Origin: a bacterium
GTDB lineage: Bacteria > UBA10199 > 2-02-FULL-50-16 > JAJFLM01
Length of the DNA: 64,000 nt
Assembly: GCA_965216315.1 (NCBI GenBank)
Contig: CBDCFN010000016.1
Span: 2,277,060 to 2,341,059, forward strand
Direction: 5' to 3'
Shown here: piece by piece, positions 12,702 through 40,124 of the stretch
Numbering within the stretch: the stretch's first letter is position 1
How the letters are laid out: every line of letters begins with the position of its first letter
Made by a program: the position numbers and the translations under genes
The notes under the pieces: generated by a model
Database searches by the model: none
What the model was told of the DNA's origin: nothing
The model's input: the letters and a program-made list of their open reading frames with translations, nothing else

Positions 12702-14180
12702 TTATTGTCTCAACAGCGCACGGCGCCCAAACAACACGCCTAATGCTGCCAAGGCCATCACGAAGAGGCCGAGTGTATTTGCCGCGTGAGGCGTCGCGTT
12801 CAGGCTACAACCACCCGATGTCGCGAGTGATTCACTTTCTTCACCCGTTCCATCACCGACGATAACTTCTTCATTTTCCGCCGGATTCTCTTCCGCATCC
12901 TCTCCCTTATCCGCGTCTATGTTTATAAGTTCGCCTTCACATTGATCATCACAACCGTCGCCATTTTCTTCATTCCCGTCGTCGCAGTCCTCTCCCTCAT
13001 CCACAATACCATTGCCACAGAGACCTTTTTCGAAGGCCCCGACATCCGAACTGACCCCAAGAGGCCTCGGAAAACCGCGCTGGTCTTCAGCCAGCTTGAC
13101 AATGATGGCGGCATCAATAGCGAGGCTGCCGGCTCCAAGCGCATGTGTGCGGGTGTCTCCGCCGTTAAAAGCCAAGGCTTGCAACTTAAGATCGGCACTG
13201 TCGACTCCCGATTGATCCGTCGTTTCCGTAAGGTTACAGGTTCCGTCGACATCAATGTTGCCACCACCCGATGTAATCGTCCCGAGACCACCGGACGTAT
13301 CGCAATTCGCGTCAACGCCGCCGGATCCGTCTACCTGTGCCAACAAACTATTATACAAATTCACTTCGCCATCACCGGCAACGAGATGAGCCGCTAGCAG
13401 GTCAGCACGATTATGATAGAAAGTGACATGCCAGAGATCCACATCGTCCGCGAGACTCACCAGCCCGCCACCGGTCGGCGCCGTATTGTTACTGATCGTG
13501 ACATTCACCAACTTGATGTTGCTAGAGCCCGTTCCAACGGCAACACCGCCACCAAAATCGGCAGCGCTATTGTCGCTGACCAAACAGCGCTCCATATCAA
13601 GCGTTCCGGTTCCTATCGCCAGACCGCCGCCAGCGTCGGCTTCATTGCCGATAAGCTCGACATCACGCAAAATAATATCACCGGATCCATCCGAATAGAT
13701 TCCGGCACCGGGTTCCGTGGGGCTCGATCCACTCTGAATCGAGAGTCGCTCAAAAGTTACGTTCGCATTATTTAAAACGTGAAACACTCGACTGTGTTGA
13801 CCACCACTGATAATCGGCAGAGGCAATTTCTTAAGCGGGATAGCACCCGAACTCAAACTCGGGTCCCCTTGGATGATGACATCATCCGTGATATCAAAAT
13901 CGCGCAGGCCATTCGCATCATCATCGACAAGCATCGTCTCATCGATTCCATAAATGCCGTTGGCAATGATAATCGTATCTTCGCCGGGATTGCTATTCGC
14001 TAGATTAATCGCCGCACGCAAGGTGCATGACGTTCCGCCACCGAGCATGAAGAAACAGATACCACCATCTTCCGTTCGATCCACGGTATAAGTCTCCGCG
14101 TGGACTTGAGCCGCCGCCAACATCGCGACAACCACCGCGCTAATAATTGAGAATTTTTTAATCGTTTCCAGTATACCCAT
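12702..14180 (-). CDS. secreted beta-helix protein with CSLREA-type motif, one Myxococcus-type cysteine-rich repeat and MYXO-CTERM-like C-terminal sorting signal
   Basis: 492 aa; signal peptide; CTLRAAINLAN motif; CGNGIVDEGEDCDDGNEENGDGCDDQC; C-terminus SGGCS...TLGLFVMALAALGVLFGRRALLRQ (Cys motif, hydrophobic helix, basic tail). Confidence 0.75.
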   Translation of the reverse strand: MGILETIKKFSIISAVVVAMLAAAQVHAETYTVDRTEDGGICFFMLGGGTSCTLRAAINLANSNPGEDTIIIANGIYGIDETMLVDDDANGLRDFDITDDVIIQGDPSLSSGAIPLKKLPLPIISGGQHSRVFHVLNNANVTFERLSIQSGSSPTEPGAGIYSDGSGDIILRDVELIGNEADAGGGLAIGTGTLDMERCLVSDNSAADFGGGVAVGTGSSNIKLVNVTISNNTAPTGGGLVSLADDVDLWHVTFYHNRADLLAAHLVAGDGEVNLYNSLLAQVDGSGGVDANCDTSGGLGTITSGGGNIDVDGTCNLTETTDQSGVDSADLKLQALAFNGGDTRTHALGAGSLAIDAAIIVKLAEDQRGFPRPLGVSSDVGAFEKGLCGNGIVDEGEDCDDGNEENGDGCDDQCEGELINIDADKGEDAEENPAENEEVIVGDGTGEESESLATSGGCSLNATPHAANTLGLFVMALAALGVLFGRRALLRQ

Positions 14181-23384: not shown

Positions 23385-25637
23385 ATGCTGCGTCGTCTGA
23401 CCCCGGCCATAGTTATCGCATTGATCATTGGAGCGGTCTATCTGCTGTATCTCCACCATCAAATCATCTCCAAGTTTGAGTACCATCGGTGGAATTTGCC
23501 CTCACGGGTCTATTCGGATGCTTTCCCACTCTATCCGGGACGGCAGGTCCCGGCCTCGGCCATCCATCAGCGACTCCGCCATTTAGGTTATATTTCCGTC
23601 GGCTCGCAACCACGTCACCACGGCCAGTACCATTACGCCGGTGGGCAGTTTGCAATTTATCTCCACAGCTTCGACTACCCCGAAGACAAGTTTGAAGGAT
23701 ATCCCATCTCATTCAGCGTTGGCGATGGTGTCGTTCAAGACCTGATCCGACGGGATACCGGCGAGCCACTCTCCCTGACCCGACTCGAACCGGAGTTGGT
23801 TGCCTCGATCTTTGACCAGGAGATGGAAGACCGAACCGTCGTCAAACTCGAACAAGTCCCGGATGACCTGATTGAATCCATTATCGCGATCGAAGACGAA
23901 CGCTACTATTCGCACTTTGGGGTGGATCCCATCGGCATTGCCCGCGCCTTTGTCTCCAATATCACTAAGGGCGGTATTGTTCAGGGCGGTTCAACCCTGA
24001 CCCAACAACTCGTAAAGAATATTTTTCTTTATCCAAAAAAATCCTTCGTCCGTAAATTCAACGAAATGATCATGGCCCTGATGATGGAGATTCGCTACAG
24101 CAAAGATGAAATCCTGCAGGCCTATCTCAACGAAATTTACCTAGGACAACAGGGGGCGGCCAGCATCTCCGGCGTTGCCGAAGCGTCACGCTACTATTTC
24201 TCCAAAGAGGTCAGTCAGCTCAGCGTGGCCGAATGTGCCCTGCTTGCCGGCATGATCCGCTCTCCCGGCTATTACTCGCCCTTCAATAATCCGAAACGGG
24301 CACGCGACCGCCGCAACTTCGTTTTAAAACGCCTCCATGATAAGAAACTGATCCTCGCCCAAGAGTACAAACAGGCGCGTCAAGTGCCGTTGCCCAAGAA
24401 ACGTAAGCGCGACAAGCTAAGTAATGCCCCTTTCTTTGTCGATTTTGTCCAAAAACAGCTCAAAGAAAATTTTCCGGCCGACAAACTTCGTTCGGAAGGC
24501 CTGAGAATCTTCACAACCTTAGACATGAGCATGCAGCGAGCGGCGGAAAAGTCGGTCTCTGATTGGCTCAACCGCCTGGAAAAAGATTATGCCTATCTCA
24601 AAAAGAAAGCCAAAGAAGGGAAGCACTTGGAATCCGCGCTCATCGCCGTGCAACCACAAACAGGCTATGTCAGGGCCTATGTCGGCGGCCGTGACTACAC
24701 CAAAGTGCAATTCGACCACATCAGTGATGCGCGCCGCCAACCCGGCTCCGCCTTCAAACCCTTTGTCTTCCTCACGGCCTTAGATCCGTCACGCCGGGAT
24801 CCACCCTTCACCTTATCTTCTCTCATTGACGATGATCCGTTTCATGTGAAGGCGGGCGGCAAGCGTTGGTCACCGAAGAACTATGACAAAAAAAACCACG
24901 GCAAAGTCCGCCTCCGGACGGCACTCGAAAAAAGTCTCAACGTTGCCACTTCGCGATTAGCCTTAGAGGTCGGACTGGAACACGTGGTCTACACGGCACG
25001 TGAAGCGGGCATCACCAGCAAACTGGAAGCCTATCCGTCGCTCGCGTTGGGTTCCTTTGAAGTCACTCCTTTGGAACTCGTTGCCGCCTACACAATCTTT
25101 CCGAATCAGGGAGTCCGCACCCGCCCCGTCGCCATCCGCCAGGTTGTCACTAAGGAGGGCGAGGTCTTGGAGAAGAAAGACTTTCAGATGAAGCGGATTT
25201 TTTCGGAAGACGTTATCTATTTAATGAACCGATTGCTCGCCGGCGTCGTCGATCGAGGCACGGCGACACGCGCACGCAGCATGGGTCTTACCGGCATTGC
25301 GGCAGGCAAAACGGGAACGACGACGGACTATCGAGACGCCTGGTTTGTGGGCTATACACCGGACTTGCTGGCCCTCTCCTGGGTTGGCTATGATGATAAT
25401 GCCAAGACCCAACGTTCCGGCTCTAGCGGCGCCCTGCCTATTTGGACCAATTTCATGAAGCAGGCGACAAGGGGCCGTCAGTACAAAGATTTTATCGCGA
25501 CTCCGAAGATAATCGTCGTTGATGTTGACAAACAGACCGGGCTCTTGTCCAAAAGAAGCTGTGGACCAAGTTATGAAGAGTATTTCATCGAAAAGACCGA
25601 ACCGACGCGCTTCTGCGACGAGCCGGACCTCCCCTAA
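23385..25637 (+). CDS. class A penicillin-binding protein (bifunctional glycosyltransferase/transpeptidase, PBP1A family)
   Basis: N-terminal TM anchor; glycosyltransferase motifs IAIEDERYYSHFGVD and GGSTLTQQLVKN; transpeptidase domain with SAFKPF; 750 aa. Confidence 0.9.
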   Translation: MLRRLTPAIVIALIIGAVYLLYLHHQIISKFEYHRWNLPSRVYSDAFPLYPGRQVPASAIHQRLRHLGYISVGSQPRHHGQYHYAGGQFAIYLHSFDYPEDKFEGYPISFSVGDGVVQDLIRRDTGEPLSLTRLEPELVASIFDQEMEDRTVVKLEQVPDDLIESIIAIEDERYYSHFGVDPIGIARAFVSNITKGGIVQGGSTLTQQLVKNIFLYPKKSFVRKFNEMIMALMMEIRYSKDEILQAYLNEIYLGQQGAASISGVAEASRYYFSKEVSQLSVAECALLAGMIRSPGYYSPFNNPKRARDRRNFVLKRLHDKKLILAQEYKQARQVPLPKKRKRDKLSNAPFFVDFVQKQLKENFPADKLRSEGLRIFTTLDMSMQRAAEKSVSDWLNRLEKDYAYLKKKAKEGKHLESALIAVQPQTGYVRAYVGGRDYTKVQFDHISDARRQPGSAFKPFVFLTALDPSRRDPPFTLSSLIDDDPFHVKAGGKRWSPKNYDKKNHGKVRLRTALEKSLNVATSRLALEVGLEHVVYTAREAGITSKLEAYPSLALGSFEVTPLELVAAYTIFPNQGVRTRPVAIRQVVTKEGEVLEKKDFQMKRIFSEDVIYLMNRLLAGVVDRGTATRARSMGLTGIAAGKTGTTTDYRDAWFVGYTPDLLALSWVGYDDNAKTQRSGSSGALPIWTNFMKQATRGRQYKDFIATPKIIVVDVDKQTGLLSKRSCGPSYEEYFIEKTEPTRFCDEPDLP

Positions 25638-25671
25638 CCCCTCCTTGGTAAGGAGGGGAAGTCTCTGCATC

Positions 25672-26067
25672 TTGTTGGTTGCGTTGTGTTTGACCTTTAC
25701 CGCATGTCCCAAGCGGCCAACAACGCGTCCTCCCCGACCTGAGGTCGAACATCGCCGCCCCGAGGTCATTCGCCCCAACGGACAAGACTCGCCGGAACAA
25801 AAGGCCGCCGATCAACTGATCGTCGCGGGGATTGCCGCGCTCAAAGACGATGACGCGGAAAAAGCTGCAACTCATTTCGAGCAGGCCGTTCGCATCGCTT
25901 CCTCTTACGGTCCCGCCTACTATTGGCTGGCACGTGCCAAGTATGACCTCGACCAACTCACGCGCGCCTGGGATTTGCTCGACCGCGCGGAATTATTGAT
26001 CGGCCATGAGAGCCGCTGGCTCGAGCGCATCGACCAGCTCCGCGCCGCAATTTCCGACGCACGGTAG
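25672..26067 (+). CDS. putative small lipoprotein with TPR-like helical region
   Basis: AAGGAGGGG SD at 25650-25658; probable TTG start 25672 giving LLVALCLTFTAC lipobox; the upstream part of ORF 25519-26067 overlaps the PBP 3' end and is probably not translated. Confidence 0.4.
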   Translation: MLVALCLTFTACPKRPTTRPPRPEVEHRRPEVIRPNGQDSPEQKAADQLIVAGIAALKDDDAEKAATHFEQAVRIASSYGPAYYWLARAKYDLDQLTRAWDLLDRAELLIGHESRWLERIDQLRAAISDAR

Positions 26068-26098
26068 CCCCTTTCCCCGCGCCCCAATAGCGAGTATA

Positions 26099-26608
26099 AT
26101 GAAGCCATTCGACATGGCGACACGGAAGCAGGCAGCAGCGGACCCGAAGAAAAAGCCGGCCAAAAAGCGCGTCAAAAAAAAGCACGTCGTCGACTCAGTC
26201 AGATTCTCTAAACAATTAAAGTGGTTGGAGCCTTATCTGCGCCGGGCCAAGGACAAGATGCCCAGCCTGGAGCTGCCCCGCTACGTCCGTCCGTTCAAAC
26301 CTTCAAAAAACAAGATCTTGAGGACGCTGGGCAATGCCTTCTTTGAAACCAAGACGATTTCACTCGCGACCCACGATCAGCTGCTCCAAAAGCAACCGGA
26401 CAATACGTATCTGGTCTATCGCATCGTCAAACTGCATCGAAAACGCATCTTGGAAACCTTTGCGCACGAACTCGCCCACTTCCGCTATCCGGATCACAAC
26501 TACGAACAGGAAGAGTATACCAAGTCGATTTTTAAGGCCTTCGAGATGAAAGAGACCTGCCCCACCTGCAAGGGCACGGGTAAGGTGCATGCCCTCTGTG
26601 AAAGCTAA
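26099..26608 (+). CDS. putative zinc metallopeptidase-like protein (HExxH motif plus C-terminal CxxC zinc-ribbon-like element; SprT/YgjP-like)
   Basis: start taken at MKPFDMATRK; lysine-rich basic N-region; HELAH motif; CPTCKGTG near C-terminus. Confidence 0.45.
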   Translation: MKPFDMATRKQAAADPKKKPAKKRVKKKHVVDSVRFSKQLKWLEPYLRRAKDKMPSLELPRYVRPFKPSKNKILRTLGNAFFETKTISLATHDQLLQKQPDNTYLVYRIVKLHRKRILETFAHELAHFRYPDHNYEQEEYTKSIFKAFEMKETCPTCKGTGKVHALCES

Positions 26609-26688: not shown

Positions 26689-27369
26689 TTAGTGAACCGG
26701 AGACTGCGTGAGGTGTTCACGGATCTGTGCAAGCGCATCCGGGTTATCACGGAAGTACGCCTGGGCCAACGACTGGGCATCCCGGCTACCGCCGACGTAA
26801 ATATCCCGCGTCGCAATGGGCGCCACCGGTACGGCTGGTTCATCCGGCGGATTTCCCGTCACGACGACGGGGGTCCGAACGGGCCCGCCTGCATTGGCAA
26901 GGGGCATGGCTCCGGCGGGTCGGCGGTTAGCAAAGTTTGCCGAAAAGGTCAGGGTCTGGCCCTGGTAACGAACGGTTGCCACATTGGAGTCGCTTAGATT
27001 CGGTACCGTACCCGGCTGACCGACTCCGCCGCGAGCCATCGTTCCCTGCGAGCGCGCGATGATCGCATCGACAGGACTAAACAGGTTGGCGGGTTGCCGC
27101 GTCGTGCCGCTATCCGGCGCTTGAGTGGCGCGTGCCACTATCGGATTAGCAGGCGGGGGCGTCGGTTCGGGCAAACTCGCCAACAGATCCTCAGCTGGGT
27201 CCGCAGGGGCTGTTTGGCCGTGAGCTCGATCGTAAGTTGCAAGCGCTTCATCTACCGACTGCGTAATAGGATCTGCCGATGCTGTCGGGCTGGCTTGGCC
27301 GTGAGCTCGATCGTAAGATTGAAGGGCCGCGTCAACGACGGCCCCGATATCGATTGTATTTCCACCCAT
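26689..27369 (-). CDS. low-complexity Ala/Pro/Thr-rich protein of unknown function, paralog A (MGGNTI N-terminus)
   Basis: 226 aa; strong SD AAGGAG 8 nt upstream of ATG; internal repeats DAALQSYDRAHGQ and DEALATYDRAHGQ; no signal peptide; paralog of 28539-29087. Confidence 0.6.
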   Translation of the reverse strand: MGGNTIDIGAVVDAALQSYDRAHGQASPTASADPITQSVDEALATYDRAHGQTAPADPAEDLLASLPEPTPPPANPIVARATQAPDSGTTRQPANLFSPVDAIIARSQGTMARGGVGQPGTVPNLSDSNVATVRYQGQTLTFSANFANRRPAGAMPLANAGGPVRTPVVVTGNPPDEPAVPVAPIATRDIYVGGSRDAQSLAQAYFRDNPDALAQIREHLTQSPVH

Positions 27370-27476
27370 GATAAGTCTCCTTGTTTTATACGGTTTTGGT
27401 TAAATCCTTCATTGGACACAACGTTTCGCGTTCGGCTTCGATAAGGGTCGCGTCATGGGAATCAGACACTATTGTT

Positions 27477-28574
27477 ATGCCTGGATTCCAAAATCTCACG
27501 ACCGTGGCCCGACGTCTGCGCGTCCATCTGCAGCAGCATCACGGGCCGAATGACCCCGCGCTTGATCGCGGGATTCCTCTGCGCCGTTGGGCTGCCCCTT
27601 CTTCTTCCGGTCTCAGTTCCCAAGCCCCACAGCTTGTCCCGGGTCAGGCCGATACTCTGGTCAGCGTCCCGGAAATCTTTCAAGAAAGTCTGCGTCGTCT
27701 AGAACAAATTCGTTTTGGCTCGACTTCCTTTGCCAGGGAGGTGGCTTCAACCAACCCGACCGCCACTGACTTCTATAATGACTACCGCCGCGACGCGGCT
27801 TACTTTCCCCCCTGGCTCATCGATGATGGCAACCCCATCAACTTGGCGGATCATGCCTTGCGGGCCCGTATCGATTCCGTCGTTCAGACAGCTCAGCGGG
27901 AAGCACAACGCAGGGGCCACCGACGGGGATCGGTCCCCTACAATGACCTGGTTTTGACGCGGCTGTTGCAATCGCTCCGCCAGGCTCAAAGTGCCGGCGG
28001 TTTTGGCCTGAGCTACGTCTTCAGTGCCGGCAACCGCCATCGGCGCCGTAATGCCATCGAGGCCTTCGCCGCCCATCAAGGTGACTGCAATGCCTTCTCG
28101 TTTCTCTTCTACGCCTTGGCACGACGTGCGGGACTCAATCCCCGCTTCATCAGTATTCCGGGGGAGCGCCAAAGCTACACGGGACCGTTTCGGGCGATCT
28201 ATCACGTCGGCGTCGCCGTCGAAGTTCGTCCCGGCGCCTTACGGCCCTGTGATCCGAGTCGCGGGGTCCGTGTCGATGAAGGGCGTTATCAATGGTATCC
28301 GCTGACCAACCTCGAAATGCTGGCCAGTTTCCTGCGGGATGTCGGCCTCTACAATGTAAGTCGACCCGCAGAACAAGAGCAGATCTTGCTCCAGGCCTAT
28401 CGACTGGCTCCGAACAGCTTCGACATCGCTCACGACGTCAGCTGGTTTTATCGGAACATCCGGCACAGCCCCCGAAGGGCTGCGCCCTACGTGCGTAGGG
28501 CGCAGCAGATTAATCCTTCGATGCAGCCGATCTGGGAATCAGTCCAGCGTCAGCGGGCCGGGCGTCCGAAGTAA
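27477..28574 (+). CDS. transglutaminase-like cysteine peptidase superfamily protein
   Basis: Cys motif GDCNAFSFLFYALARRAGLNPRFISIP, His motif YHVGVAVEV and Asp CDPS in canonical order and spacing; start uncertain (track TTG 27381 is 12 bp from the divergent gene, ATG 27477 preferred). Confidence 0.6.
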   Translation: MPGFQNLTTVARRLRVHLQQHHGPNDPALDRGIPLRRWAAPSSSGLSSQAPQLVPGQADTLVSVPEIFQESLRRLEQIRFGSTSFAREVASTNPTATDFYNDYRRDAAYFPPWLIDDGNPINLADHALRARIDSVVQTAQREAQRRGHRRGSVPYNDLVLTRLLQSLRQAQSAGGFGLSYVFSAGNRHRRRNAIEAFAAHQGDCNAFSFLFYALARRAGLNPRFISIPGERQSYTGPFRAIYHVGVAVEVRPGALRPCDPSRGVRVDEGRYQWYPLTNLEMLASFLRDVGLYNVSRPAEQEQILLQAYRLAPNSFDIAHDVSWFYRNIRHSPRRAAPYVRRAQQINPSMQPIWESVQRQRAGRPK

Positions 28575-29087
28575 CGCCGCACGGTCATTGGGACGGGCCC
28601 AAAGAGTCTGACCGCCGTGGCTGCGAACCGCGACAAAACCTTCGCTGGGCGCGCTGGCGCCAGCAGACGTCACGATGACCGGATGACCTTGGATGGTGCC
28701 GGTGCGAACACTCGGCGTTCCGCTCCCACCACGGGCCATTGGCGTATCCGAGGTTACAGGAGCGTCAATAGGACGCTCGGTTACAGGTCTCGGCTGACTA
28801 AAACGAGCGGCACTGCGTGCCACTGCGCCAGCAGTAGGAGCACTACCGCTCGTCGATCCATTGTGGTTGGCATCATAAGAAGCGAGTGCACTATTCACCT
28901 GCGGTTCAACAGCGTTGTTATCATAGGAGTCTAACGCAGCATCGACGATGGCGACCGTTTGGCGCGCCTCAGGTGTGGTTGCGGGAGCATCAGACAGCGG
29001 CACGGAATCGAGTAATTCCGTATTCGGTTCAGGCGCGGCCTGTTGCATGAGAGTTTCAAGACTTGGTCTAATAGTATTATCCCCCAT
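28539..29087 (-). CDS. low-complexity Ala/Pro/Ser/Thr-rich protein of unknown function, paralog B (MGDNTI N-terminus)
   Basis: GAGGAGG SD 8 nt upstream of ATG at 29085-29087; shares MG-x-NTI start, VDAALxSYD, ALASYD and MARGG-x-G-x-P segments with 26689-27369; 3' end overlaps the convergent 27477-28574 by 36 bp. Confidence 0.55.
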   Translation of the reverse strand: MGDNTIRPSLETLMQQAAPEPNTELLDSVPLSDAPATTPEARQTVAIVDAALDSYDNNAVEPQVNSALASYDANHNGSTSGSAPTAGAVARSAARFSQPRPVTERPIDAPVTSDTPMARGGSGTPSVRTGTIQGHPVIVTSAGASAPSEGFVAVRSHGGQTLWARPNDRAALLRTPGPLTLD

Positions 29088-29238: not shown

Positions 29239-29275
29239 GTGAACAACGTGAACATATATTGTTTACGTTGTTCAC
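29239..29275. promoter_or_regulatory. large inverted repeat GTGAACAACGTGAACA-tatat-TGTTTACGTTGTTCAC in divergent promoter region
   Basis: 16 bp arms matching 15/16 with 5 nt AT spacer; the left arm carries a tandem CGTGAACA direct repeat. Confidence 0.5.
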
Positions 29276-29333: not shown

Positions 29334-29837
29334 ATGGCGACCAAGATCTTCATCGACGGCTACAATCTCCTCTGGGCCTCCGACACCCATCGCCCCGAGG
29401 CGATTCGCAACTTCGAGCACTCACGCGAAGAGTTGATCCAACGCCTCGCCGGCAGTCCGCGGCTCGCGCGCCATCAAGTCACAATTGTTTTTGACGCGCA
29501 CAAAACGGACGCCTACGACCTGAGTTCAGAAACCATCGATGGGATTGAGGTCCAGTTTACCAGGCAGGGCCAATCCGCCGACAGCGTGCTCAAAAAGCTG
29601 GCGCGTCAACATGGCAGTGCGGCCGTCATCATTAGTTCGGATCGAGAAGTCGCGCGTTATGCGGAAAAAAGGGGTTGCGGCGTATTAGGCTCTCATGAAT
29701 TTGACCTCCTCTTGGATAGTCCACCGGCCAGTGAGGATGACGCCTTCGAGGACGCCGACGAGATCAGTTATAGCAAAAAAGGACCCGCGCGCCGTGACCC
29801 CAAAGCACGGCGTCGCGCCCTCGCGCGGCTGCGCTAG
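29334..29837 (+). CDS. NYN-domain (YacP-like) predicted RNA-binding nuclease
   Basis: N-terminus KIFIDGYNLLWA matches YacP/NYN family starts; 167 aa; basic C-terminal tail. Confidence 0.65.
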   Translation: MATKIFIDGYNLLWASDTHRPEAIRNFEHSREELIQRLAGSPRLARHQVTIVFDAHKTDAYDLSSETIDGIEVQFTRQGQSADSVLKKLARQHGSAAVIISSDREVARYAEKRGCGVLGSHEFDLLLDSPPASEDDAFEDADEISYSKKGPARRDPKARRRALARLR

Positions 29838-29851
29838 GCCTATTCCCTCAC

Positions 29852-30190
29852 TTAATGAACCTGCTGGGCAACGGGAATCGCTAATTGACGCCGCCCGATC
29901 GCCAAGGCCGTGACGAGGCCGCCCTCAAAGTAGGCCCCGATCTGCGCCTCCAAACGTTGTTTGATGAAGCGAAAGGGACCGGGCTCACAACTGAGCGGTT
30001 CCGCGTAAATATCCGCGCGAACATTGGTCATCCGGCCCTCGCCGGTCACTGTATAAGTAAATCGAACCAGCCCATTAAATGAGTAAGGGACTCGAGAGAC
30101 GATTCTCTGTACCCCGCGTACCAGCTCCGCTTGGGTCCACTCCGGTTCGGCAGACTCTATCCTCAGTGTGGAATCGATATGGTGTGACAT
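29852..30190 (-). CDS. hypothetical protein
   Basis: 112 aa; strong SD AAGGAGGG 5 nt upstream of ATG. Confidence 0.5.
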   Translation of the reverse strand: MSHHIDSTLRIESAEPEWTQAELVRGVQRIVSRVPYSFNGLVRFTYTVTGEGRMTNVRADIYAEPLSCEPGPFRFIKQRLEAQIGAYFEGGLVTALAIGRRQLAIPVAQQVH

Positions 30191-30295: not shown

Positions 30296-30327
30296 TTCTC
30301 ATTTTGATAACGTTATCAAAATGAGAA
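30296..30327. promoter_or_regulatory. perfect 32 bp palindrome TTCTCATTTTGATAAC|GTTATCAAAATGAGAA
   Basis: lies 106 bp upstream of 29852-30190 start and about 120 bp downstream of tRNA-Pro; no T-run follows on either strand, so operator-like rather than terminator-like. Confidence 0.5.
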
Positions 30328-30725: not shown

Positions 30726-31700
30726 TTAGGACCCTGACATCACGACACCGCGAGGCGGGGTAAAGGTCAAGTGCCCGCGTCCCGCCTGGGTAAAGGCCAT
30801 CGAGCGCAAGATTTCATGAGGGGTCGAGGTTGCGTCATCCACGGTCGCCAAGAGAACGTAGCCACAACCGGCGTGATACGCCGACCCCTTTTTATAAGGG
30901 ACGGGATGGTATTCGGTGCCCTCAATGACGTACGGATCCCCTCCCTCGCCGGCTTGGGGAATGCCTGCCTGACCCACGGGGGCTATCATGACATTGTCGA
31001 AGGTCCGCGTATAGGTCACACCCTCCGCCGTGCGTCCCGTCACTCCCAGCTGTCCTGCCACCGGGTTAAAAGGGCCCTGGAGAGGAAGACGAATCGAATC
31101 ACTGGAAAGATGGGACGTCCCGCCAAAACGAATGTCGCTGGCCAGATAAACCTGAGCCCCGTCGCTACCTTCCACCGTCTTACCGGCGATCGAGACGAGG
31201 AGCCCCTCGAGCTCCGTCGATTGACTCAAGGCCGTCTGAATATCACGGACCAGTGCCTGCTCCTGGCTGTCACTAAGATCCAATCCCGAGGCGAAGACCT
31301 GCACGCGGTCCAGAGACGCCATGGTCAGCCCCTCGGTATTCGCAACCGTCGCATCGAGATAAATCATCAAGGATCCGGTATCGAGACGGGTGTAGCGATC
31401 GCCCAAGGCTCCGGTCAGGGTCTCTCCCACGATTCGATTGACCTCCGGATTGGAGAGGCGATGGCCGGGGTCCGACATGGGCGGCGTCGACGCTGAAGAG
31501 GCCGGGAGGGTCCGTGCCATCACGGATGTACCGCCGTTGGCACCTGAAGACCCCGCCATCGCTTGAAACGAACGGCTTACCTCGGCCTCCGTCATAGTTG
31601 GCTCGGCCGCTACGGCGGTATCACTGGATACAAATTGTGCTGTATTGATATCGGCCATGGTGCGAACCATGGCGCTTCCTTGAATAATTGTTTCAGACAT
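30726..31700 (-). CDS. hypothetical protein
   Basis: start at MSETIIQ with GGAGG SD; 5' UTR and upstream operator nearly identical to those of 42867-43409; no recognised domain. Confidence 0.5.
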   Translation of the reverse strand: MSETIIQGSAMVRTMADINTAQFVSSDTAVAAEPTMTEAEVSRSFQAMAGSSGANGGTSVMARTLPASSASTPPMSDPGHRLSNPEVNRIVGETLTGALGDRYTRLDTGSLMIYLDATVANTEGLTMASLDRVQVFASGLDLSDSQEQALVRDIQTALSQSTELEGLLVSIAGKTVEGSDGAQVYLASDIRFGGTSHLSSDSIRLPLQGPFNPVAGQLGVTGRTAEGVTYTRTFDNVMIAPVGQAGIPQAGEGGDPYVIEGTEYHPVPYKKGSAYHAGCGYVLLATVDDATSTPHEILRSMAFTQAGRGHLTFTPPRGVVMSGS

Positions 31701-31950: not shown

Positions 31951-32853
31951 GTGAGTGGAAACTTCTGTAAACCCTTAAAAGATCAAGATCCGACCGCTCA
32001 TGCGCTCTGTAACCAACTGCGTCATGCCGGCGTCACGAGGGACACACTCGACCAAGGTTCGACTCGCCCTGACTACCAGAACTTCGGCCGTCACCAACTC
32101 GAGGTCACCGACACGTCCGGTTTCTCAATGGCGCACAATGGCGTCCTTGAAATCGCAGAAATTTATGACGCGGCCCTAGCCGCTGCGAGCCTGGCCTGGC
32201 AGCAACCCAGCCGGTACCACGTCGACCCTCGGTCGCAACTAGCCATCCCTTGGCTCCCATCGACCGGCAGTGGTGACACCTCAGTGGATCGCCAACTAGA
32301 AGCCTTGATCCAAAATCCAGCCGCGGCCCTGCCCACCCATGAACCTCCGGGTAGCCCGGCCGCCCATCGTCAGCTGGCCCAACTCCTTTATACAATCTTG
32401 TTACCGGCACTGAACCCAGGGACAGACCTTGACGCCTACCTCTATGCTTCCTACTGCCGCAAACTCGGCATTGTCGCCCAACCGATAGAGTTGACCCTGT
32501 CCGATCGCGTACTGATCGGACTCCAGCTCGATCCCCAGTGGCCCAACCACCTGACATTTGTCGACTTTACGAGAGGGCCGCGCGGTTTTGACGTGACCCT
32601 CTTTGCCGGCGATTGGGTCGCCATCTCCGAGCGAGAGCTGCTCGCCTATCATTATCTCCAGCAAGCGGCCCAACCCCAGGGACTCCAGCGGGCCCTCATG
32701 ATCGCCCCGCAGAACTACCGCGTCATTGCCGCCGAGGCCCGCTTCTTAATGGAAAACGGTTCGCGTGATCAGGCCTGCCAGCGGCTCCGCGAGAGCCTCC
32801 GCCTCAACGCCGTCTTCGCCGGCGCCAGTCAGATGTACGCCCATGACTGCTAA
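31951..32853 (+). CDS. hypothetical protein, possible Cys-His-Asp hydrolase-like fold
   Basis: ORF 31942-32853; GAGGGAGG SD at 31933-31940 favours the GTG at 31951; ordered motifs ASYCRKLGI, NHLTFVDF, GDWV noted, but assignment is weak. Confidence 0.45.
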   Translation: MSGNFCKPLKDQDPTAHALCNQLRHAGVTRDTLDQGSTRPDYQNFGRHQLEVTDTSGFSMAHNGVLEIAEIYDAALAAASLAWQQPSRYHVDPRSQLAIPWLPSTGSGDTSVDRQLEALIQNPAAALPTHEPPGSPAAHRQLAQLLYTILLPALNPGTDLDAYLYASYCRKLGIVAQPIELTLSDRVLIGLQLDPQWPNHLTFVDFTRGPRGFDVTLFAGDWVAISERELLAYHYLQQAAQPQGLQRALMIAPQNYRVIAAEARFLMENGSRDQACQRLRESLRLNAVFAGASQMYAHDC

Positions 32854-37359: not shown

Positions 37360-37569
37360 ATGGAGCTCGAAATCTATCGTGCCGCAATCGGAGGACTCGG
37401 ACCGTGGGAACTGGTCATCATTCTCGCAGTCGTCTTAGTCGTGTTTGGTGCCGGCAAGCTCCCGAAGGTGGGATCATCAATCGGTGAGGCCCTCAAGAAT
37501 TTTAAAAAATCAGTCAGTAGTGACGATGACGATCAAAATAAGAAACCGGATGGAGGGGATGCATCATGA
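37360..37569 (+). CDS. tatA: twin-arginine translocase subunit TatA/E
   Basis: GGLGPWELVIILAVVLVVFGAGKLPKVGSSIGEALKNFKK is the TatA TM plus amphipathic helix signature; start taken at in-frame ATG 37360; acidic C-terminus. Confidence 0.7.
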   Translation: MELEIYRAAIGGLGPWELVIILAVVLVVFGAGKLPKVGSSIGEALKNFKKSVSSDDDDQNKKPDGGDAS

Positions 37570-38084
37570 CGGCCAAAAAGGAACGGATAATTAAGCGCTA
37601 TCAAAACCGTAAGCTCTATGACACGAGCCAAAGCCGGTACGTAACGCTCAACGATATCGCCGACATGATCAAGAACGGTGAAGACGTCAAGATTATTGAT
37701 AACCAGTCCAAAGAGGATCTGACCTCGCTGACTTTGACGCAGATTATCTTTGAACAAGAAAAGAAGAAAAAAAGCCTCCTCCCGCTTCCAGCGCTGCGGG
37801 ACATCATTCGCAGTGGACCGAGCCAAGTCGTCGATTTTGTCGCCAGTAAGGCCGACGAGGTCGTGCACTCCATTACCCATGCCCGCGATGAGGTGGAAGA
37901 CTATCTGGATAAAATGATCAAAAAAGGCGATCTCTCGCTCGAAGATATGCGCCAGCTCCTCCGCTCCTTCGTCGACAATAAGATCAAGCCGAAGATCGGT
38001 GTCCCCGGCTTCCAGTCCGAAGTCCATCAGATGCGCAAGAAGATCGACGATCTGGAGAAGAAGCTTCAGCAGTATGAAAAGTAG
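37566..38084 (+). CDS. PhaR-like DNA-binding protein (PHA synthesis repressor family N-terminal domain)
   Basis: RIIKRYQNRKLYDTSQSRYVTLNDIADMIKNGEDVKIIDNQSKEDLTSLTLTQIIFEQE closely matches the PhaR N-terminal domain; coiled-coil C-terminus; start overlaps tatA stop. Confidence 0.7.
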   Translation: MTAKKERIIKRYQNRKLYDTSQSRYVTLNDIADMIKNGEDVKIIDNQSKEDLTSLTLTQIIFEQEKKKKSLLPLPALRDIIRSGPSQVVDFVASKADEVVHSITHARDEVEDYLDKMIKKGDLSLEDMRQLLRSFVDNKIKPKIGVPGFQSEVHQMRKKIDDLEKKLQQYEK

Positions 38085-39007
38085 TGTTCGCAGACCTGTC
38101 TCGAAAAAAGCTCATCCTCGTCTCCGGTAAAGGGGGCGTCGGCAAAACGACGATCAGCGCGGCGCTCGCCTGGCACTTAAGCCAGGCTGGCCGCAAGGTC
38201 CTGCTCGCTACGATCGATTGCGAGGACCAAATCCCCTCCCTCTTTGACCGCAAGCCGATGGGCTATGAACCGAGTCCACTCCGCCCCCAACTCTCCGGCA
38301 TCAACATTACCGCCCGTAAGGCTTTTGAAGAATATGTCGTCCGACAGATCATGTTTCACTCGATCTATTCAGCCGTCTTCGACAATAAATACGTGCGCGC
38401 TTTTATTGAGGGCACCCCGGGCATGGCGGAGCTCATGTGCATCGGTAAGGTCTACGACATGGTCGATGAATACGACACGATCGTGCTCGATGCCCCCGCA
38501 ACCGGACATGGTAAGTCGCTCCTCCAAGTCCCGACGGTTGTTGCCGAAGCCGTCCGGGTTGGTCCTCTGAAGACAAATTCCGAGAAAATTGAAGCCCTTC
38601 TTAAGGACTCAACAAAAACCGGCCTGCTCATCGTCAGTCTTGCCGAGGAAATGCCGGTTGAGGAGACCCTCGAACTGCGGGAATGGATCCAAAGCCATCT
38701 CGGCATTGAGCCAACCGGGGTTATCATTAACGGCCTGTTTACACCGTTGTTCCCCCACCACTCCGATCAAGAACGATGTGAGACTTTTTTCCGCGAACAC
38801 AACTCCAACCCCGTCATGGAAGGCTTACGTCATAGCTATTATATGCGCATGAAACGCTCGGAGCTCCATGCGCACTACACGCAACAGCTGCAAGAACAAC
38901 TTAAAGGGCTCCCAACCGTAGAAATCCCGTTTTATTTTTGCGAATCTATTGGGACAACTGAGCTCAAAGACATTGGAGAACGCATCGAAAGCCATGAATC
39001 AACGTAA
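38084..39007 (+). CDS. ArsA/GET3-family P-loop ATPase (single domain), copy 1
   Basis: GTG start overlapping PhaR-like stop; deviant Walker A VSGKGGVGKTT; DAPATGH switch motif. Confidence 0.75.
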   Translation: MFADLSRKKLILVSGKGGVGKTTISAALAWHLSQAGRKVLLATIDCEDQIPSLFDRKPMGYEPSPLRPQLSGINITARKAFEEYVVRQIMFHSIYSAVFDNKYVRAFIEGTPGMAELMCIGKVYDMVDEYDTIVLDAPATGHGKSLLQVPTVVAEAVRVGPLKTNSEKIEALLKDSTKTGLLIVSLAEEMPVEETLELREWIQSHLGIEPTGVIINGLFTPLFPHHSDQERCETFFREHNSNPVMEGLRHSYYMRMKRSELHAHYTQQLQEQLKGLPTVEIPFYFCESIGTTELKDIGERIESHEST

Positions 39008-40124
39008 AGGCAAACCCAAACTCTCCGCACTGATCCAATCCCAGGAGATTCTCGTCGTCTGTGGCAGCGGTGGCGTCGGCAAAACAACCTCGGCGGCCGC
39101 CATCGCAATGCAAGCGGCCATGATCGGCAAACGAGCTATCGTCCTCACGATTGATCCCGCCAAGAGATTGGCTTCTTCAATGGGTCTCGAGGCCCTCACG
39201 GATGAACCGATGCAAATACAGGACGATTATTTTCCGAGCCCGCCTAAGGGATCGCTCCATGCCATGATGCTCGATACCAAACGGACCTTTGATCGTATCA
39301 TCGAAAAATATGCCCCCTCGGTGGAGGCACGACAGGCCATCTTGGAGAACCGTCTCTATCAACAAATGTCCAATATGCTCGCCGGCTCGCATGAGTACAT
39401 GGCCATGGAACGACTGTATGAAATCCACCATGATGGTAATTTCGATCTGGTCGTCCTGGATACGCCACCGACGCGTAACGCCCTTAATTTTCTCGACTCA
39501 CCTAAAAAAATGGTCGACCTGACGCGCCACTCCGTCATCAAGTGGTTTCTTAAACCAGGGGTCTTTGCCGGCAAAGTCAGCTTTGGGCTCTTCCAAAAAA
39601 CAGCGGAAAAAGTCCTCAATGTCTTCGATCAACTTGCCGGTTTTAGTTTTCTCCATGAGCTAGCGGAAATGATTAGCGGCATGGCCGATATGTTGGGGGG
39701 GTTTGGTGAACGCGCCGAAAAGATTTATGAGCTGCTACGCTCGTCAAAAGTCAGTTTCATCTTAGTCGCTACTCCTGAAAAAATGGCATTGCAAGACGCA
39801 CGCTACTTTCATGAGCAGATCGGCGAATATGAATTACCTCTCGCCGGTTTTGTATTTAACCGGGTCTATCCGAATTACATTCCATCGGAGGAAGCGATTG
39901 AAGAGGCCAGGGCCCAACTCAAATCACTCCCCAACAACGTCGAAATCGGCTTGATCAAGAATCTTGAGGACTTTTTTATGCTGCAAAAGAGACATGAATT
40001 GAGCATCAAGGAATTCAAAAAGGCATGTGGCTCCAAGACCTTCTACACGTCCGTCCCTTTTTTAGAGACGGACGTGCATGACATGGAAGGACTTGCCGAA
40101 ATTAATCGGTATTTATTCGCTTAA
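38994..40124 (+). CDS. ArsA/GET3-family P-loop ATPase (single domain), copy 2
   Basis: Walker A CGSGGVGKTT, LDTPPTRN motif; ORF track start 38949, ATG 38994 chosen to minimise overlap. Confidence 0.75.
   Translation: MNQRKGKPKLSALIQSQEILVVCGSGGVGKTTSAAAIAMQAAMIGKRAIVLTIDPAKRLASSMGLEALTDEPMQIQDDYFPSPPKGSLHAMMLDTKRTFDRIIEKYAPSVEARQAILENRLYQQMSNMLAGSHEYMAMERLYEIHHDGNFDLVVLDTPPTRNALNFLDSPKKMVDLTRHSVIKWFLKPGVFAGKVSFGLFQKTAEKVLNVFDQLAGFSFLHELAEMISGMADMLGGFGERAEKIYELLRSSKVSFILVATPEKMALQDARYFHEQIGEYELPLAGFVFNRVYPNYIPSEEAIEEARAQLKSLPNNVEIGLIKNLEDFFMLQKRHELSIKEFKKACGSKTFYTSVPFLETDVHDMEGLAEINRYLFA

What the first reader, a model, noticed from the sequence alone, without database searches (positions are those of the whole stretch)
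26689..29087. Cluster of two paralogous low-complexity MG(G/D)NTI proteins flanking a transglutaminase-like enzyme
26689-27369 and 28539-29087 (both minus, both with strong SD) encode Ala/Pro/Ser/Thr-rich proteins without signal peptides that share the N-terminus MG-x-NTI, the segments VDAALxSYD and ALA(T/S)YD, and MARGG-x-G-x-P. Between them, on the opposite strand, lies a protein with a clear transglutaminase-like Cys-His-Asp core (GDCNAFSFLFYALARRAGLNPRFIS / YHVGVAVEV / CDPS). The composition of the paralogs resembles disordered effectors or enzyme substrates; they may be substrates or partners of the transglutaminase-like enzyme. The cluster reads as more GC-rich than its surroundings and lies close to tRNA-Pro, so it may be horizontally acquired.
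Basis: partly seen in the sequence, partly recalled or inferred. Interest (0 to 1): 0.7.

Follow-up and report, generated by a model that had tools for sequence, protein, structure and literature searches.

The report
Lysine-free transglutaminase-like enzyme and partners
A rare, uncharacterised chromosomal gene cluster in which a transglutaminase-fold enzyme sits between two small sister proteins, and enzyme and neighbours alike almost completely avoid lysine, which hints at a lysine-directed protein-modifying module; it is not a recently imported island.

Summary
The two minus-strand ORFs (226 and 182 aa, strong SD sites) are real and are distant paralogues over their N-terminal halves. The gene between them (27477-28574) encodes a transglutaminase-fold protein. 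It has an invariant Cys204-His243-Asp259 triad, a new N-terminal helical domain (PPWLxDD motif) and two C-terminal TPR motifs. Its AlphaFold model (pLDDT 91) matches menin, S. pyogenes TglA, LapG and other TGase-like structures.

The enzyme family is rare: 80 representatives among 1.84 billion, 15 of them close. No Pfam, NCBIfam, PADLOC or significant PHROG family matches the flanking proteins.

- In every other locus examined with flanks, the enzyme gene also has small opposite-strand orphan genes beside it, and B has clear orthologues.
- A catalytically dead paralogue (31951-32853) with its own low-complexity partner lies 3.4 kb away.
- Enzyme and partners are essentially lysine-free (1 K in 773 residues, against 3-13% in neighbours of equal GC). 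Lysine content co-varies between enzyme and partner across loci.

The horizontal-transfer idea is not supported. The GC excess lies at codon positions 1 and 2, the housekeeping block next door is equally GC-rich, no att repeats or integrase are present, and TG-NYN-priA-def-fmt-rpe is syntenic in a distant relative.

The function is inferred, not shown.

The parts
26689..27369 (-). Gene A: 226-aa Ala/Pro/Ser/Thr/Gly-rich protein (50% APSTG) with no lysine and N-terminus MGGNTI. It is a paralogue of B over residues 1-120.
   Evidence: ORF and translation. SD read. Paralogy. Lysine count. No Pfam, NCBIfam or PADLOC family, and only one insignificant PHROG match (E=0.0065, no stretch passing). No homologue outside the three known sequences in 5.8 billion proteins.
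27214..27336 (-). Internal duplication inside gene A: 42-nt copies 81 nt apart. They encode the two VDxALxxYDRAHGQ units.
   Evidence: the repeat finder family D1, 81% identity. B also carries the motif twice; the B orthologues carry it once.
27477..28574 (+). TG: 365-aa transglutaminase-fold enzyme made of an N-terminal helical domain (PPWLIDD motif), a Cys-His-Asp core and two TPR motifs. It has one lysine, as its last residue, and 47 arginines.
28086..28088 (+). Codon of the catalytic Cys204 (GDCNAF), at the N-terminus of helix 204-217.
   Evidence: Invariant in 19 of 19 close and 54 of 54 distant family members. Secondary structure. Codon read.
28203..28205 (+). Codon of His243 (YHVGVAV), in strand 239-251.
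   Evidence: Invariant. Secondary structure.
28251..28253 (+). Codon of Asp259 (CDPS), at the end of strand 254-259.
   Evidence: Invariant among the 19 close members. Secondary structure.
28308..28511 (+). C-terminal helical repeat region (residues ~278-345), holding two TPR motifs.
   Evidence: The family profile matches consensus TPR proteins over profile positions 288-359, E down to 5e-16. TPR Pfam hits occur in family members. Helices.
28539..29087 (-). Gene B: 182-aa protein with no lysine and N-terminus MGDNTI. It is convergent with TG and overlaps its 3' end by 36 nt. It has orthologues in the same position in other loci.
   Evidence: Orthologues L001:6334-6846 (E=3e-14) and L003:3808-4317 (E=2e-16). 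The conserved C-terminal module (..PVVITxxxASAPEGYVxV....GQTLWA) is seen. Lysine count.
29334..29837 (+). NYN/YacP-like nuclease gene. It is a syntenic neighbour with normal lysine content and is probably not part of the module.
   Evidence: Pfam NYN_YacP E=5e-25. The same gene directly follows TG in L006 and L007. K is 4.8%.
29852..30190 (-). w112: 112-aa lysine-poor protein (1 K). It shares a short module with the proteins encoded convergently downstream of TG in two other loci, so it is a possible third partner.
   Evidence: Smith-Waterman against L008:3957-4226, z=4.9 (2 of 1000 shuffles). That protein against L015:4308-5177, z=6.9 (0 of 1000). Lysine count. The evidence is moderate only.
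30726..31700 (-). w335: 324-aa Ser/Thr/Ala/Gly-rich, lysine-poor protein (3 K). It is divergent from the dead TG paralogue.
   Evidence: ORF. Start ATG 31700 with a GGAGG SD read. K is 0.9%. Only weak similarity to the B-family C-terminal module (hhalign P=0.016; z=3.2).
31951..32853 (+). w303: catalytically dead paralogue of TG. The Cys region is lost, His is replaced by Arg, and Asp is kept. The TPR-like tail is retained. It has 3 K.
   Evidence: hhalign of the family profile against w303: probability 97.7%, E=1.3e-12, 263 aligned columns. Start GTG 31951 lies 10 nt after a GGAGG; the ORF opens at TTG 31942.

Best explanation
What it is. The locus is a chromosomal, lineage-restricted module. 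Its core is a cytoplasmic transglutaminase-fold thiol enzyme (TG). The N-terminal helical domain and C-terminal TPR motifs give TG the same overall layout as menin, namely a TGase-like core packed against a peptide-binding TPR surface.

The partners. The small, low-complexity, fast-evolving proteins encoded on the opposite strand beside TG (A and B here, perhaps also w112) are its dedicated protein partners or substrates. The proposal is that TG holds them through short conserved motifs and a small C-terminal module.

The chemistry. TG would act through a Cys204 acyl-enzyme intermediate. In many lineages the enzyme and its partners have together purged nearly every lysine while keeping arginine. 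The most likely reaction is therefore amine-directed acyl transfer, that is transamidation or isopeptide formation onto lysines of other proteins. The lysine-free state would then protect enzyme and partner from modifying themselves.

The second copy. An inactive TG paralogue (w303) with its own partner (w335) is probably a binding-only derivative.

Shown: the fold, the triad, paralogy, neighbourhood conservation, lysine depletion and its co-variation.
Inferred: physical interaction, the substrate relationship and the type of reaction.
For: Enzyme.
- The Cys-His-Asp triad is invariant and sits in canonical positions: Cys at a helix N-terminus, His and Asp on successive strands.
- The C-terminal TPR motifs are detected by sequence profile.

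Linkage to the flanking genes.
- An opposite-strand gene for a Pfam-less small protein lies directly beside TG in the window, L001, L002, L003, L005, L006, L009, L010, L011 and L015. Many of these proteins are low-complexity.
- B-type orthologues are found (E=1e-14 to 1e-16).
- A second partner family (L006, L011, L009, L010, L005) shares a 43-column C-terminal module with the B family (hhalign P=7.5e-4). Each profile picks the other family among its first non-member hits.

Lysine.
- A, TG and B together have 1 K in 773 residues. Equal-GC neighbours have 3.2-13%.
- The same holds in L001, L002, L003, L006 and L015, whose neighbours have 3-13% K.
- K-normal enzymes (L005, L010, L011) have K-rich partners at 8-9%.
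- K-free and K-normal members are interleaved in a neighbour-joining tree.
- Where K-normal members have K, K-free members most often have R.
- More distant relatives have normal K.

Literature. Lysine deserts are documented as protection against lysine-directed conjugation (PMC10665810, PMC10169902).
Against: - No experiment and no complex prediction supports binding.
- Partners are on the opposite strand, so they are not co-transcribed with TG.
- The partner families are only marginally related to each other. A third type (L001:2491-3042 and L002:10612-11094) and the L015 neighbours show no detectable similarity to B.
- No Gln or other residue is conserved across all partner types.
- About a third of the close enzymes have normal lysine content, so lysine avoidance is not intrinsic to the fold.
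- Other lysine-free genes of unknown function sit nearby in some loci (L003:6534-7430, L002:11413-12363). The pressure may therefore come from outside the enzyme.
Confidence: 0.45

Rival explanations
1. TG is a purely hydrolytic thiol enzyme, that is a site-specific protease, isopeptidase or glutamine deamidase. It would process the neighbouring proteins as LapG processes LapA. Lysine avoidance would then reflect some other lysine-targeting activity in these lineages, not TG chemistry.
For: LapG and other TGase-like cysteine proteases are among the best structural matches. Most bacterial TGase-like proteins are thought to be proteases (Makarova, Aravind and Koonin 1999, from memory). Several close enzymes and all distant relatives have normal lysine content.
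Against: It does not explain why enzyme and partner lose lysine together and repeatedly. No conserved cleavage motif was found across partner types.
Confidence: 0.2
2. The lysine-free proteins (TG, A, B, w112, w335, w303) are effectors delivered into a eukaryotic host or prey cell. Lack of lysine would protect them from ubiquitin- or Pup-type tagging, and TG would modify host proteins.
For: Lysine depletion is clustered (6 of the 7 K-poor genes in the window are contiguous). The sequences are low-complexity and have no Sec signal. Repeat proteins typical of predatory or social delta-type bacteria occur in the window. Lysine deserts evade lysine-directed degradation (PMC10665810).
Against: No secretion-system gene, chaperone or recognisable signal lies in the window. 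The cluster is embedded in conserved housekeeping synteny. K-normal relatives exist. The lifestyle of the organism is unknown.
Confidence: 0.12
3. There is no functional link. A and B are fast-evolving orphan genes that merely sit beside TG, and lysine loss is a compositional side effect of GC-rich, Ala/Pro/Arg-rich sequence.
For: Partner similarity across loci is weak or absent. Every K-free locus has GC of at least 0.56. The genes are on opposite strands.
Against: Neighbours of equal or higher GC keep 3-13% K. L008 (GC 0.64) has a K-normal enzyme. 0 K against 47, 14 and 12 R is far from the K/(K+R) of 0.28-0.65 in adjacent genes. B orthologues keep position and orientation at 33-36% identity.
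Confidence: 0.13
4. It is a toxin-immunity or toxin-antitoxin pair, with TG as a toxic protease or deamidase and B or A as its inhibitor.
For: There is tight genetic linkage of an enzyme with a small protein. In L003 the locus lies among PemK and ParE/Phd modules.
Against: The genes are convergent or divergent, not an operon. No PADLOC family matches and only one insignificant PHROG hit. No plasmid or phage copies were found. Synteny with priA-def-fmt is conserved. A dead paralogue is retained.
Confidence: 0.05
5. The cluster is a genomic island recently acquired at tRNA-Pro.
For: tRNA-Pro lies 1.4 kb away. GC is higher than on the left flank. The segment w112, tRNA-Pro, w335, w303 is absent between NYN and priA in L006.
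Against: GC3 is not elevated. The housekeeping block at 32-37 kb is equally GC-rich. No att-like repeat was found and no integrase. TG-NYN-priA-def-fmt-rpe is syntenic in L006. No plasmid or phage homologues were found.
Confidence: 0.03

Closest known systems
Transglutaminase-like superfamily (Pfam PF01841 Transglut_core; papain-like Cys-His-Asp thiol enzymes)
   Different: The window protein scores below the Pfam gathering cut-off (21 against 23 bits). It has a unique ~190-residue N-terminal domain with invariant PPWLxDD, D125 and GG(L/F)G motifs, plus a C-terminal TPR pair. No NCBIfam family matches the window protein, and no more specific Pfam family appears among those listed.
Menin (PDB 3re2)
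   Different: Identity is 8% and there is no sequence-level relationship. Menin is a eukaryotic scaffold without a catalytic triad (from memory), whereas here the triad is invariant. The dead paralogue w303 is the closer functional analogue.
LapG / bacterial transglutaminase-like cysteine proteinases (PDB 4fgo, 4fgq)
   Different: LapG is periplasmic, calcium-dependent, lacks TPR and cleaves a giant adhesin under LapD control (from memory). TG has no signal peptide, and its neighbours are small cytoplasmic-looking proteins.
Streptococcus pyogenes TglA (PDB 9crn)
   Different: Identity is 9-13%. I could find no paper on its function in the library, so no functional transfer is possible.
Lysine deserts in ubiquitin/Pup-system components; transglutaminase-type protein tagging (Legionella MavC)
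   Same: Components of lysine-directed conjugation machinery avoid lysine (PMC10665810, PMC10169902). A bacterial transglutaminase can ligate a protein Gln to a target Lys without ATP (MavC, from memory). The product is the same kind of bond as pupylation.
   Different: No Pup, ubiquitin or UBact-like fold or C-terminal GGQ/GGE is present in A or B. No ligase, proteasome or Cif-like domain lies nearby. This is an analogy only.

Membership tests
Transglutaminase-like superfamily | Papain-like alpha+beta core fold | tested here: met
Transglutaminase-like superfamily | Cys-His-Asp triad in canonical order and secondary-structure context | tested here: met
   C204, H243 and D259 are invariant in 19 sequences. 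C and H are invariant in 54 more distant ones. Helix 204-217 and strands 239-251 and 254-259 are in the model.
Transglutaminase-like superfamily | Score above the Pfam PF01841 gathering threshold | tested here: not met
   20.9-21.1 bits against a cut-off of 23 for the window protein. Relatives reach E=2e-6 and 2e-9, so the family is a divergent branch.
Transglutaminase-like superfamily | Thiol-dependent transamidase or hydrolase activity | not testable with these tools
   Needs biochemistry.
TPR-containing proteins | 34-residue helix-turn-helix repeats detectable by profile | tested here: met
   Family profile positions 288-359 match consensus TPR proteins, E down to 5e-16. TPR_17 and TPR_1 hits occur in members.
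LapG-type BTLCP | Periplasmic location (signal peptide) | tested here: not met
   The N-terminus MPGFQNLTTVARRLRVHLQQHH has no hydrophobic h-region.
LapG-type BTLCP | Adhesin substrate and a LapD-like regulator nearby | tested here: not met
   None among the ORFs at 24-42 kb.
Menin | Sequence homology to the menin family | tested here: not met
Toxin-antitoxin / toxin-immunity pair | Co-directional, co-transcribed gene pair | tested here: not met
   A is divergent from TG and B is convergent with it. The same holds in the other loci.
tRNA-associated genomic island | Integrase plus a direct repeat of the tRNA 3' end | tested here: not met
   No integrase domain in the ORFs at 25-33 kb. No such repeat in 24-34 kb.
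tRNA-associated genomic island | Deviant synonymous-site composition and absence from relatives | tested here: not met
   GC3 is 0.51-0.63, against 0.69-0.77 for adjacent housekeeping genes. Synteny is conserved in L006.
Pup/UBact-like protein tags | Small disordered protein ending in GGQ/GGE or a similar motif, with a ligase nearby | tested here: not met
   B ends ...GPLTLD, A ends ...QSPVH, and the orthologues end ...VIAQ and ...AIVN. No ligase was found.
Lasso-peptide B protein / RiPP leader peptidase | Short precursor peptide and an Asn-synthetase-like cyclase in the cluster | tested here: not met
   The neighbours are 112-335 aa. No cyclase or RRE domain was found.
A/B paralogue family (defined here) | Significant pairwise or profile similarity between A and B | tested here: met
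   The similarity is restricted to the N-terminal half; the C-terminal halves are not alignable.

The most novel reading that the evidence does not exclude
TG and its lysine-free, largely unstructured partners form an ATP-independent protein-tagging or cross-linking system. The transglutaminase would load a partner glutamine onto Cys204 and transfer the whole partner onto lysines of target proteins, making the same gamma-glutamyl-epsilon-lysine bond as pupylation. Enzyme and tag would have purged their own lysines to avoid self-conjugation, and the dead paralogue would act as a reader or adaptor. This would be a new bacterial analogue of ubiquitin/Pup-type tagging built on a transglutaminase.
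Probability: 0.1. Interest if true: 0.85.

Novelty: new variant of a known kind. Interest (0 to 1): 0.5.

Why it matters
The transglutaminase-like superfamily is large, but few of its bacterial members have a known substrate.

This branch is rare and unannotated. It comes with its own candidate protein partners and carries an unusual, repeatedly evolved signature: enzyme and partner lose all lysines together while the surrounding genes do not.

That gives a concrete, testable handle. Does the enzyme transfer acyl groups to lysines, and are the neighbours the donors? If so, it would add a transglutaminase-based route to bacterial protein tagging or cross-linking. It would also extend the lysine-desert concept beyond ubiquitin and Pup systems.

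If not, it remains a well-defined new subfamily, TGase core plus TPR in a menin-like layout, for structural genomics.

Tried and rejected
- Word-indexed searches with B alone and with an A/B/orthologue profile returned only the three known sequences. The partner family cannot be enlarged that way.
- A PDB sequence search with TG alone gave only noise.
- The first AlphaFold run, with a 2-sequence alignment, was unusable (pLDDT 51). Only the 19-sequence alignment gave a good model.
- The afdb50 library was unavailable.
Exact look-ups of P0001 and P0003 failed.
- The metagenome scan mostly returned duplicates of L003 and L002-type loci.
- A combined C-terminal-module HMM did not significantly recover A or w335 (E=2.5 and 0.27).
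- The third partner type (L001:2491-3042 and L002:10612-11094) and the L015 neighbours are not detectably related to B or to the second partner family.
- My impression that w112, L008:3957-4226 and L015:4308-5177 resemble a TonB C-terminal domain got no Pfam support and is dropped.
- A crude FoldIndex profile was ambiguous, because Ala-rich sequence scores as 'folded'. 'Disordered' therefore rests on composition only.
- Literature searches for TglA found nothing usable.
- Promoter and terminator scans were at chance level.
- An N-myristoylation reading of the MG N-termini was considered and dropped. The L003 orthologue starts MTKPIT, and position 6 is Ile in A and B.
Full report
**1. Observation.**
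The three genes are as described.
- Gene A is 26689-27369(-), 226 aa.
- Gene B is 28539-29087(-), 182 aa.
- Between them on the plus strand lies an ORF that opens at 27381.

Both minus-strand genes have strong SD sites, read directly: AAGGAGA-6 nt-ATG for A and AGGAGG-8 nt-ATG for B. NCBI calls both with these ends. The quoted motifs are all present.

A and B are related above chance:
- BLASTP E=4e-5.
- Smith-Waterman z=5.5, with 0 of 1000 shuffles reaching the score.
- B-family profile against A, hhalign P=2.5e-5.

The similarity covers only the N-terminal ~120 residues: the MG-x-NT start, one or two V(D)xALxSYD units, and MARGGxG. Gene A carries a 42-nt internal duplication that encodes the repeated unit.

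**2. The enzyme.**
Alignment with orthologues fixes the start at ATG 27477 (MPGF..., 365 aa).
- Pfam Transglut_core matches at E=4e-4 but below its cut-off. It matches 5 of 19 close relatives and 9 of 54 distant ones.
- With a 19-sequence alignment AlphaFold gives pLDDT 91 and pTM 0.91.
- The Foldseek top hits are all TGase-like.
- Cys204, His243 and Asp259 are invariant. They sit at a helix N-terminus and on two successive strands.
- The last ~70 residues are two TPR motifs by sequence profile.
- The N-terminal ~190 residues are helical. They carry invariant PPWLxDD, D125 and GG(L/F)G motifs and match no known family.

The transglutaminase fold is therefore confirmed. The layout, a TGase core plus TPR, is menin-like.

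**3. Rarity.**
- A word-indexed search of 5.8 billion proteins found only the protein itself and one 55% relative.
- A full HMMER scan of 1.84 billion representatives found 80 proteins at E<1e-3, 15 of them at E<1e-30.
- No homologues were found in plasmid or phage collections.
- A and B have no relatives beyond two B orthologues.
- No family in Pfam, NCBIfam or PADLOC matches A or B. PHROGs gave only one insignificant hit for A.

**4. Neighbourhood.**
I fetched ten further distinct loci that carry relatives of 32-55% identity. One of them (L016) was too short to show any flank.

| Locus | Genes next to TG |
|---|---|
| L001, L003 | A B orthologue lies convergent just downstream (E=3e-14 and 2e-16), as in the window |
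| L005, L010 | A convergent downstream gene of a second family |
| L006, L009, L011 | The same second family, divergent upstream |
| L002, L001 (second TG copy) | A third partner type |
| L015 | The window's exact layout: small gene(-), TG(+), overlapping small gene(-), both small proteins starting MG |

The second family shares a 43-column C-terminal module with B (..GT.x.xG..F.......P.xGY.....; hhalign P=7.5e-4). Each family's profile picks the other among its first non-member hits, at insignificant E-values. The partners evolve fast, and their mutual homology is only partly demonstrable.

**5. Extension of the cluster.**
- The ORF at 31951-32853 is a full-length homologue of TG (hhalign probability 97.7%, E=1.3e-12). 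It lacks the catalytic Cys segment, has Arg in place of His, and keeps the Asp and the TPR-like tail. It is a dead paralogue.
- It is divergently paired with a 324-aa Ser/Thr/Ala-rich protein (30726-31700).
- The 112-aa gene at 29852-30190 shares a short module with the downstream partners in L008 and L015 (z=4.9 and 6.9).

**6. Lysine avoidance.**
In the window:

| Protein | Lysines / residues |
|---|---|
| A | 0 / 226 |
| TG | 1 / 365 (the last residue), with 47 Arg |
| B | 0 / 182 |
| w112 | 1 / 112 |
| w335 | 3 / 324 |
| w303 | 3 / 303 |

Adjacent genes of the same GC have normal lysine content: priA 3.5%, fmt 4.5%, rpe 3.2%, def 7.0%, NYN 4.8% and the SprT-like gene 13%. At about 4% K, roughly 32 lysines would be expected in A+TG+B. 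One is observed.

The same contrast holds in L001, L002, L003, L006 and L015. There TG and the adjacent small proteins have 0-1 K, while their neighbours have 3-13%.

Enzymes with normal lysine content (L005, L010, L011) have K-rich partners at 8-9%.
- GC does not explain this. L008 (GC 0.64) has a K-normal enzyme, and L006 (GC 0.56) has a K-free one.
- K-free and K-normal members are interleaved in a neighbour-joining tree.
- At positions where K-normal members have K, K-free members most often have R.
- More distant relatives have normal or high K.

Enzyme and partner thus appear to share a selective pressure against the lysine side chain, and that pressure seems to have been switched on or off repeatedly. 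Lysine deserts are known from components of lysine-directed conjugation systems (PMC10665810, PMC10169902).

**7. Horizontal transfer.**
- GC by codon position shows the excess at positions 1 and 2, which reflects Ala/Pro/Gly/Arg-rich, Lys-free composition. GC3 is 0.51-0.63. That is lower than in priA/def/fmt/rpe at 0.69-0.77.
- The 1-kb windows of the priA-rpe block from 32 to 37 kb are as GC-rich as the cluster.
- No repeat of the tRNA-Pro end was found, and no integrase.
- L006 keeps the order TG-NYN-priA-def-fmt-rpe.

The enzyme gene is an old resident of this chromosomal site. Only the segment w112, tRNA-Pro, w335, w303 and gene B are variable relative to L006.

**8. Mechanism.**
Best reading (confidence 0.45): TG is a thiol acyl-transfer enzyme. 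It holds dedicated low-complexity partners on its TPR and N-terminal surface, as menin holds disordered peptides, and acts on or with them. The joint lysine purge points to amine-directed chemistry (transamidation).

The rivals are:
- a purely hydrolytic processing enzyme (0.20);
- no functional link at all (0.13);
- lysine-free effectors that evade host tagging (0.12);
- a toxin-immunity pair (0.05);
- a tRNA-linked island (0.03).

None of the interaction or chemistry steps is shown. They need complex prediction and biochemistry.

**9. Comparison and novelty.**
The enzyme is a divergent branch of the transglutaminase-like superfamily. Fold and triad tests are met, and the Pfam threshold is not.
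- It is not a LapG-type BTLCP: it has no signal peptide, and there is no adhesin or LapD nearby.
- It is not menin: there is no sequence homology, and here the triad is intact.

Three features have no described counterpart that I could find: the pairing with orphan partner proteins, the dead paralogue and the coordinated lysine avoidance. I rate it a new variant of a known kind, with interest 0.5.

**10. Organism.**
It is unnamed. The window is chromosomal (serS, glnA, lon, dinB, priA, def, fmt). It carries myxo_disulf_rpt and choice-of-anchor Q proteins. That suggests a Myxococcota/Bdellovibrionota-like lineage, which is an inference.

Noticed in passing
window 30296-30327: A perfect 32-nt palindrome, TTCTCATTTTGATAAC|GTTATCAAAATGAGAA, lies between the start of the 112-aa gene and tRNA-Pro. 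It looks like a dimeric regulator operator.
   Followed up: no
window 29239-29275: A near-perfect palindrome, GTGAACAACGTGAACA-N5-TGTTTACGTTGTTCAC, lies in the divergent intergenic region between gene B and the NYN/YacP gene. It is a possible shared operator.
   Followed up: no
window 26006-26608 (+): A very lysine-rich (13%) protein with an HExxH motif (AHELAHF) and a C-terminal CxxCxGxG zinc ribbon. Pfam hits to WLM, YgjP-like and DnaJ_CXXCXGXG are only weak. It is convergent with the lysine-free gene A. The true start is probably downstream of 26006, because the ORF overlaps the preceding TPR gene.
   Followed up: partly
window 329-1891 (-) and 12702-14180 (-): Large proteins with cysteine-rich acidic repeats (TIGR02232 myxo_disulf_rpt) and choice-of-anchor Q domains. 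This is a lineage hint towards Myxococcota/Bdellovibrionota-like bacteria. A similar Cys-rich repeat protein occurs at L010:3359-3799.
   Followed up: no
window 37566-40124 (+): A PhaR-like regulator is followed by two ArsA/Get3-family ATPases whose best NCBIfam matches are BagA/BagB-type. The second ORF overlaps the first by ~60 nt.
   Followed up: no
L003 6534-7430 (-), L002 11413-12363 (-), L001 3231-4097 (-), L013 631-1518 (-): Further proteins of 288-316 aa with no lysine at all and no Pfam match lie close to the TG genes in other loci. L003:6534-7430 has 39 Arg and 0 Lys. The lysine-free set may be larger than enzyme plus partner.
   Followed up: partly
L003 1681-2273 and 5669-6255: In this relative the TG/B pair is embedded between PemK-type and ParE/Phd-type toxin-antitoxin modules. 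That suggests a variable genomic region there, unlike the housekeeping context of the window and L006.
   Followed up: no
L002 and L015 (both GCA_036274695.1); L001: Single genomes or contigs carry two or more TG paralogues, each with its own lysine-free neighbours. The family tends to expand within a genome, as in the window (TG plus the dead copy).
   Followed up: partly
window 25519-26067 (+): A TPR-containing ORF (TPR_19 E=5e-5; weak PilW-like match) overlaps the 3' end of the PBP1A gene and the start of the HExxH gene. The start codons in this stretch are uncertain.
   Followed up: no
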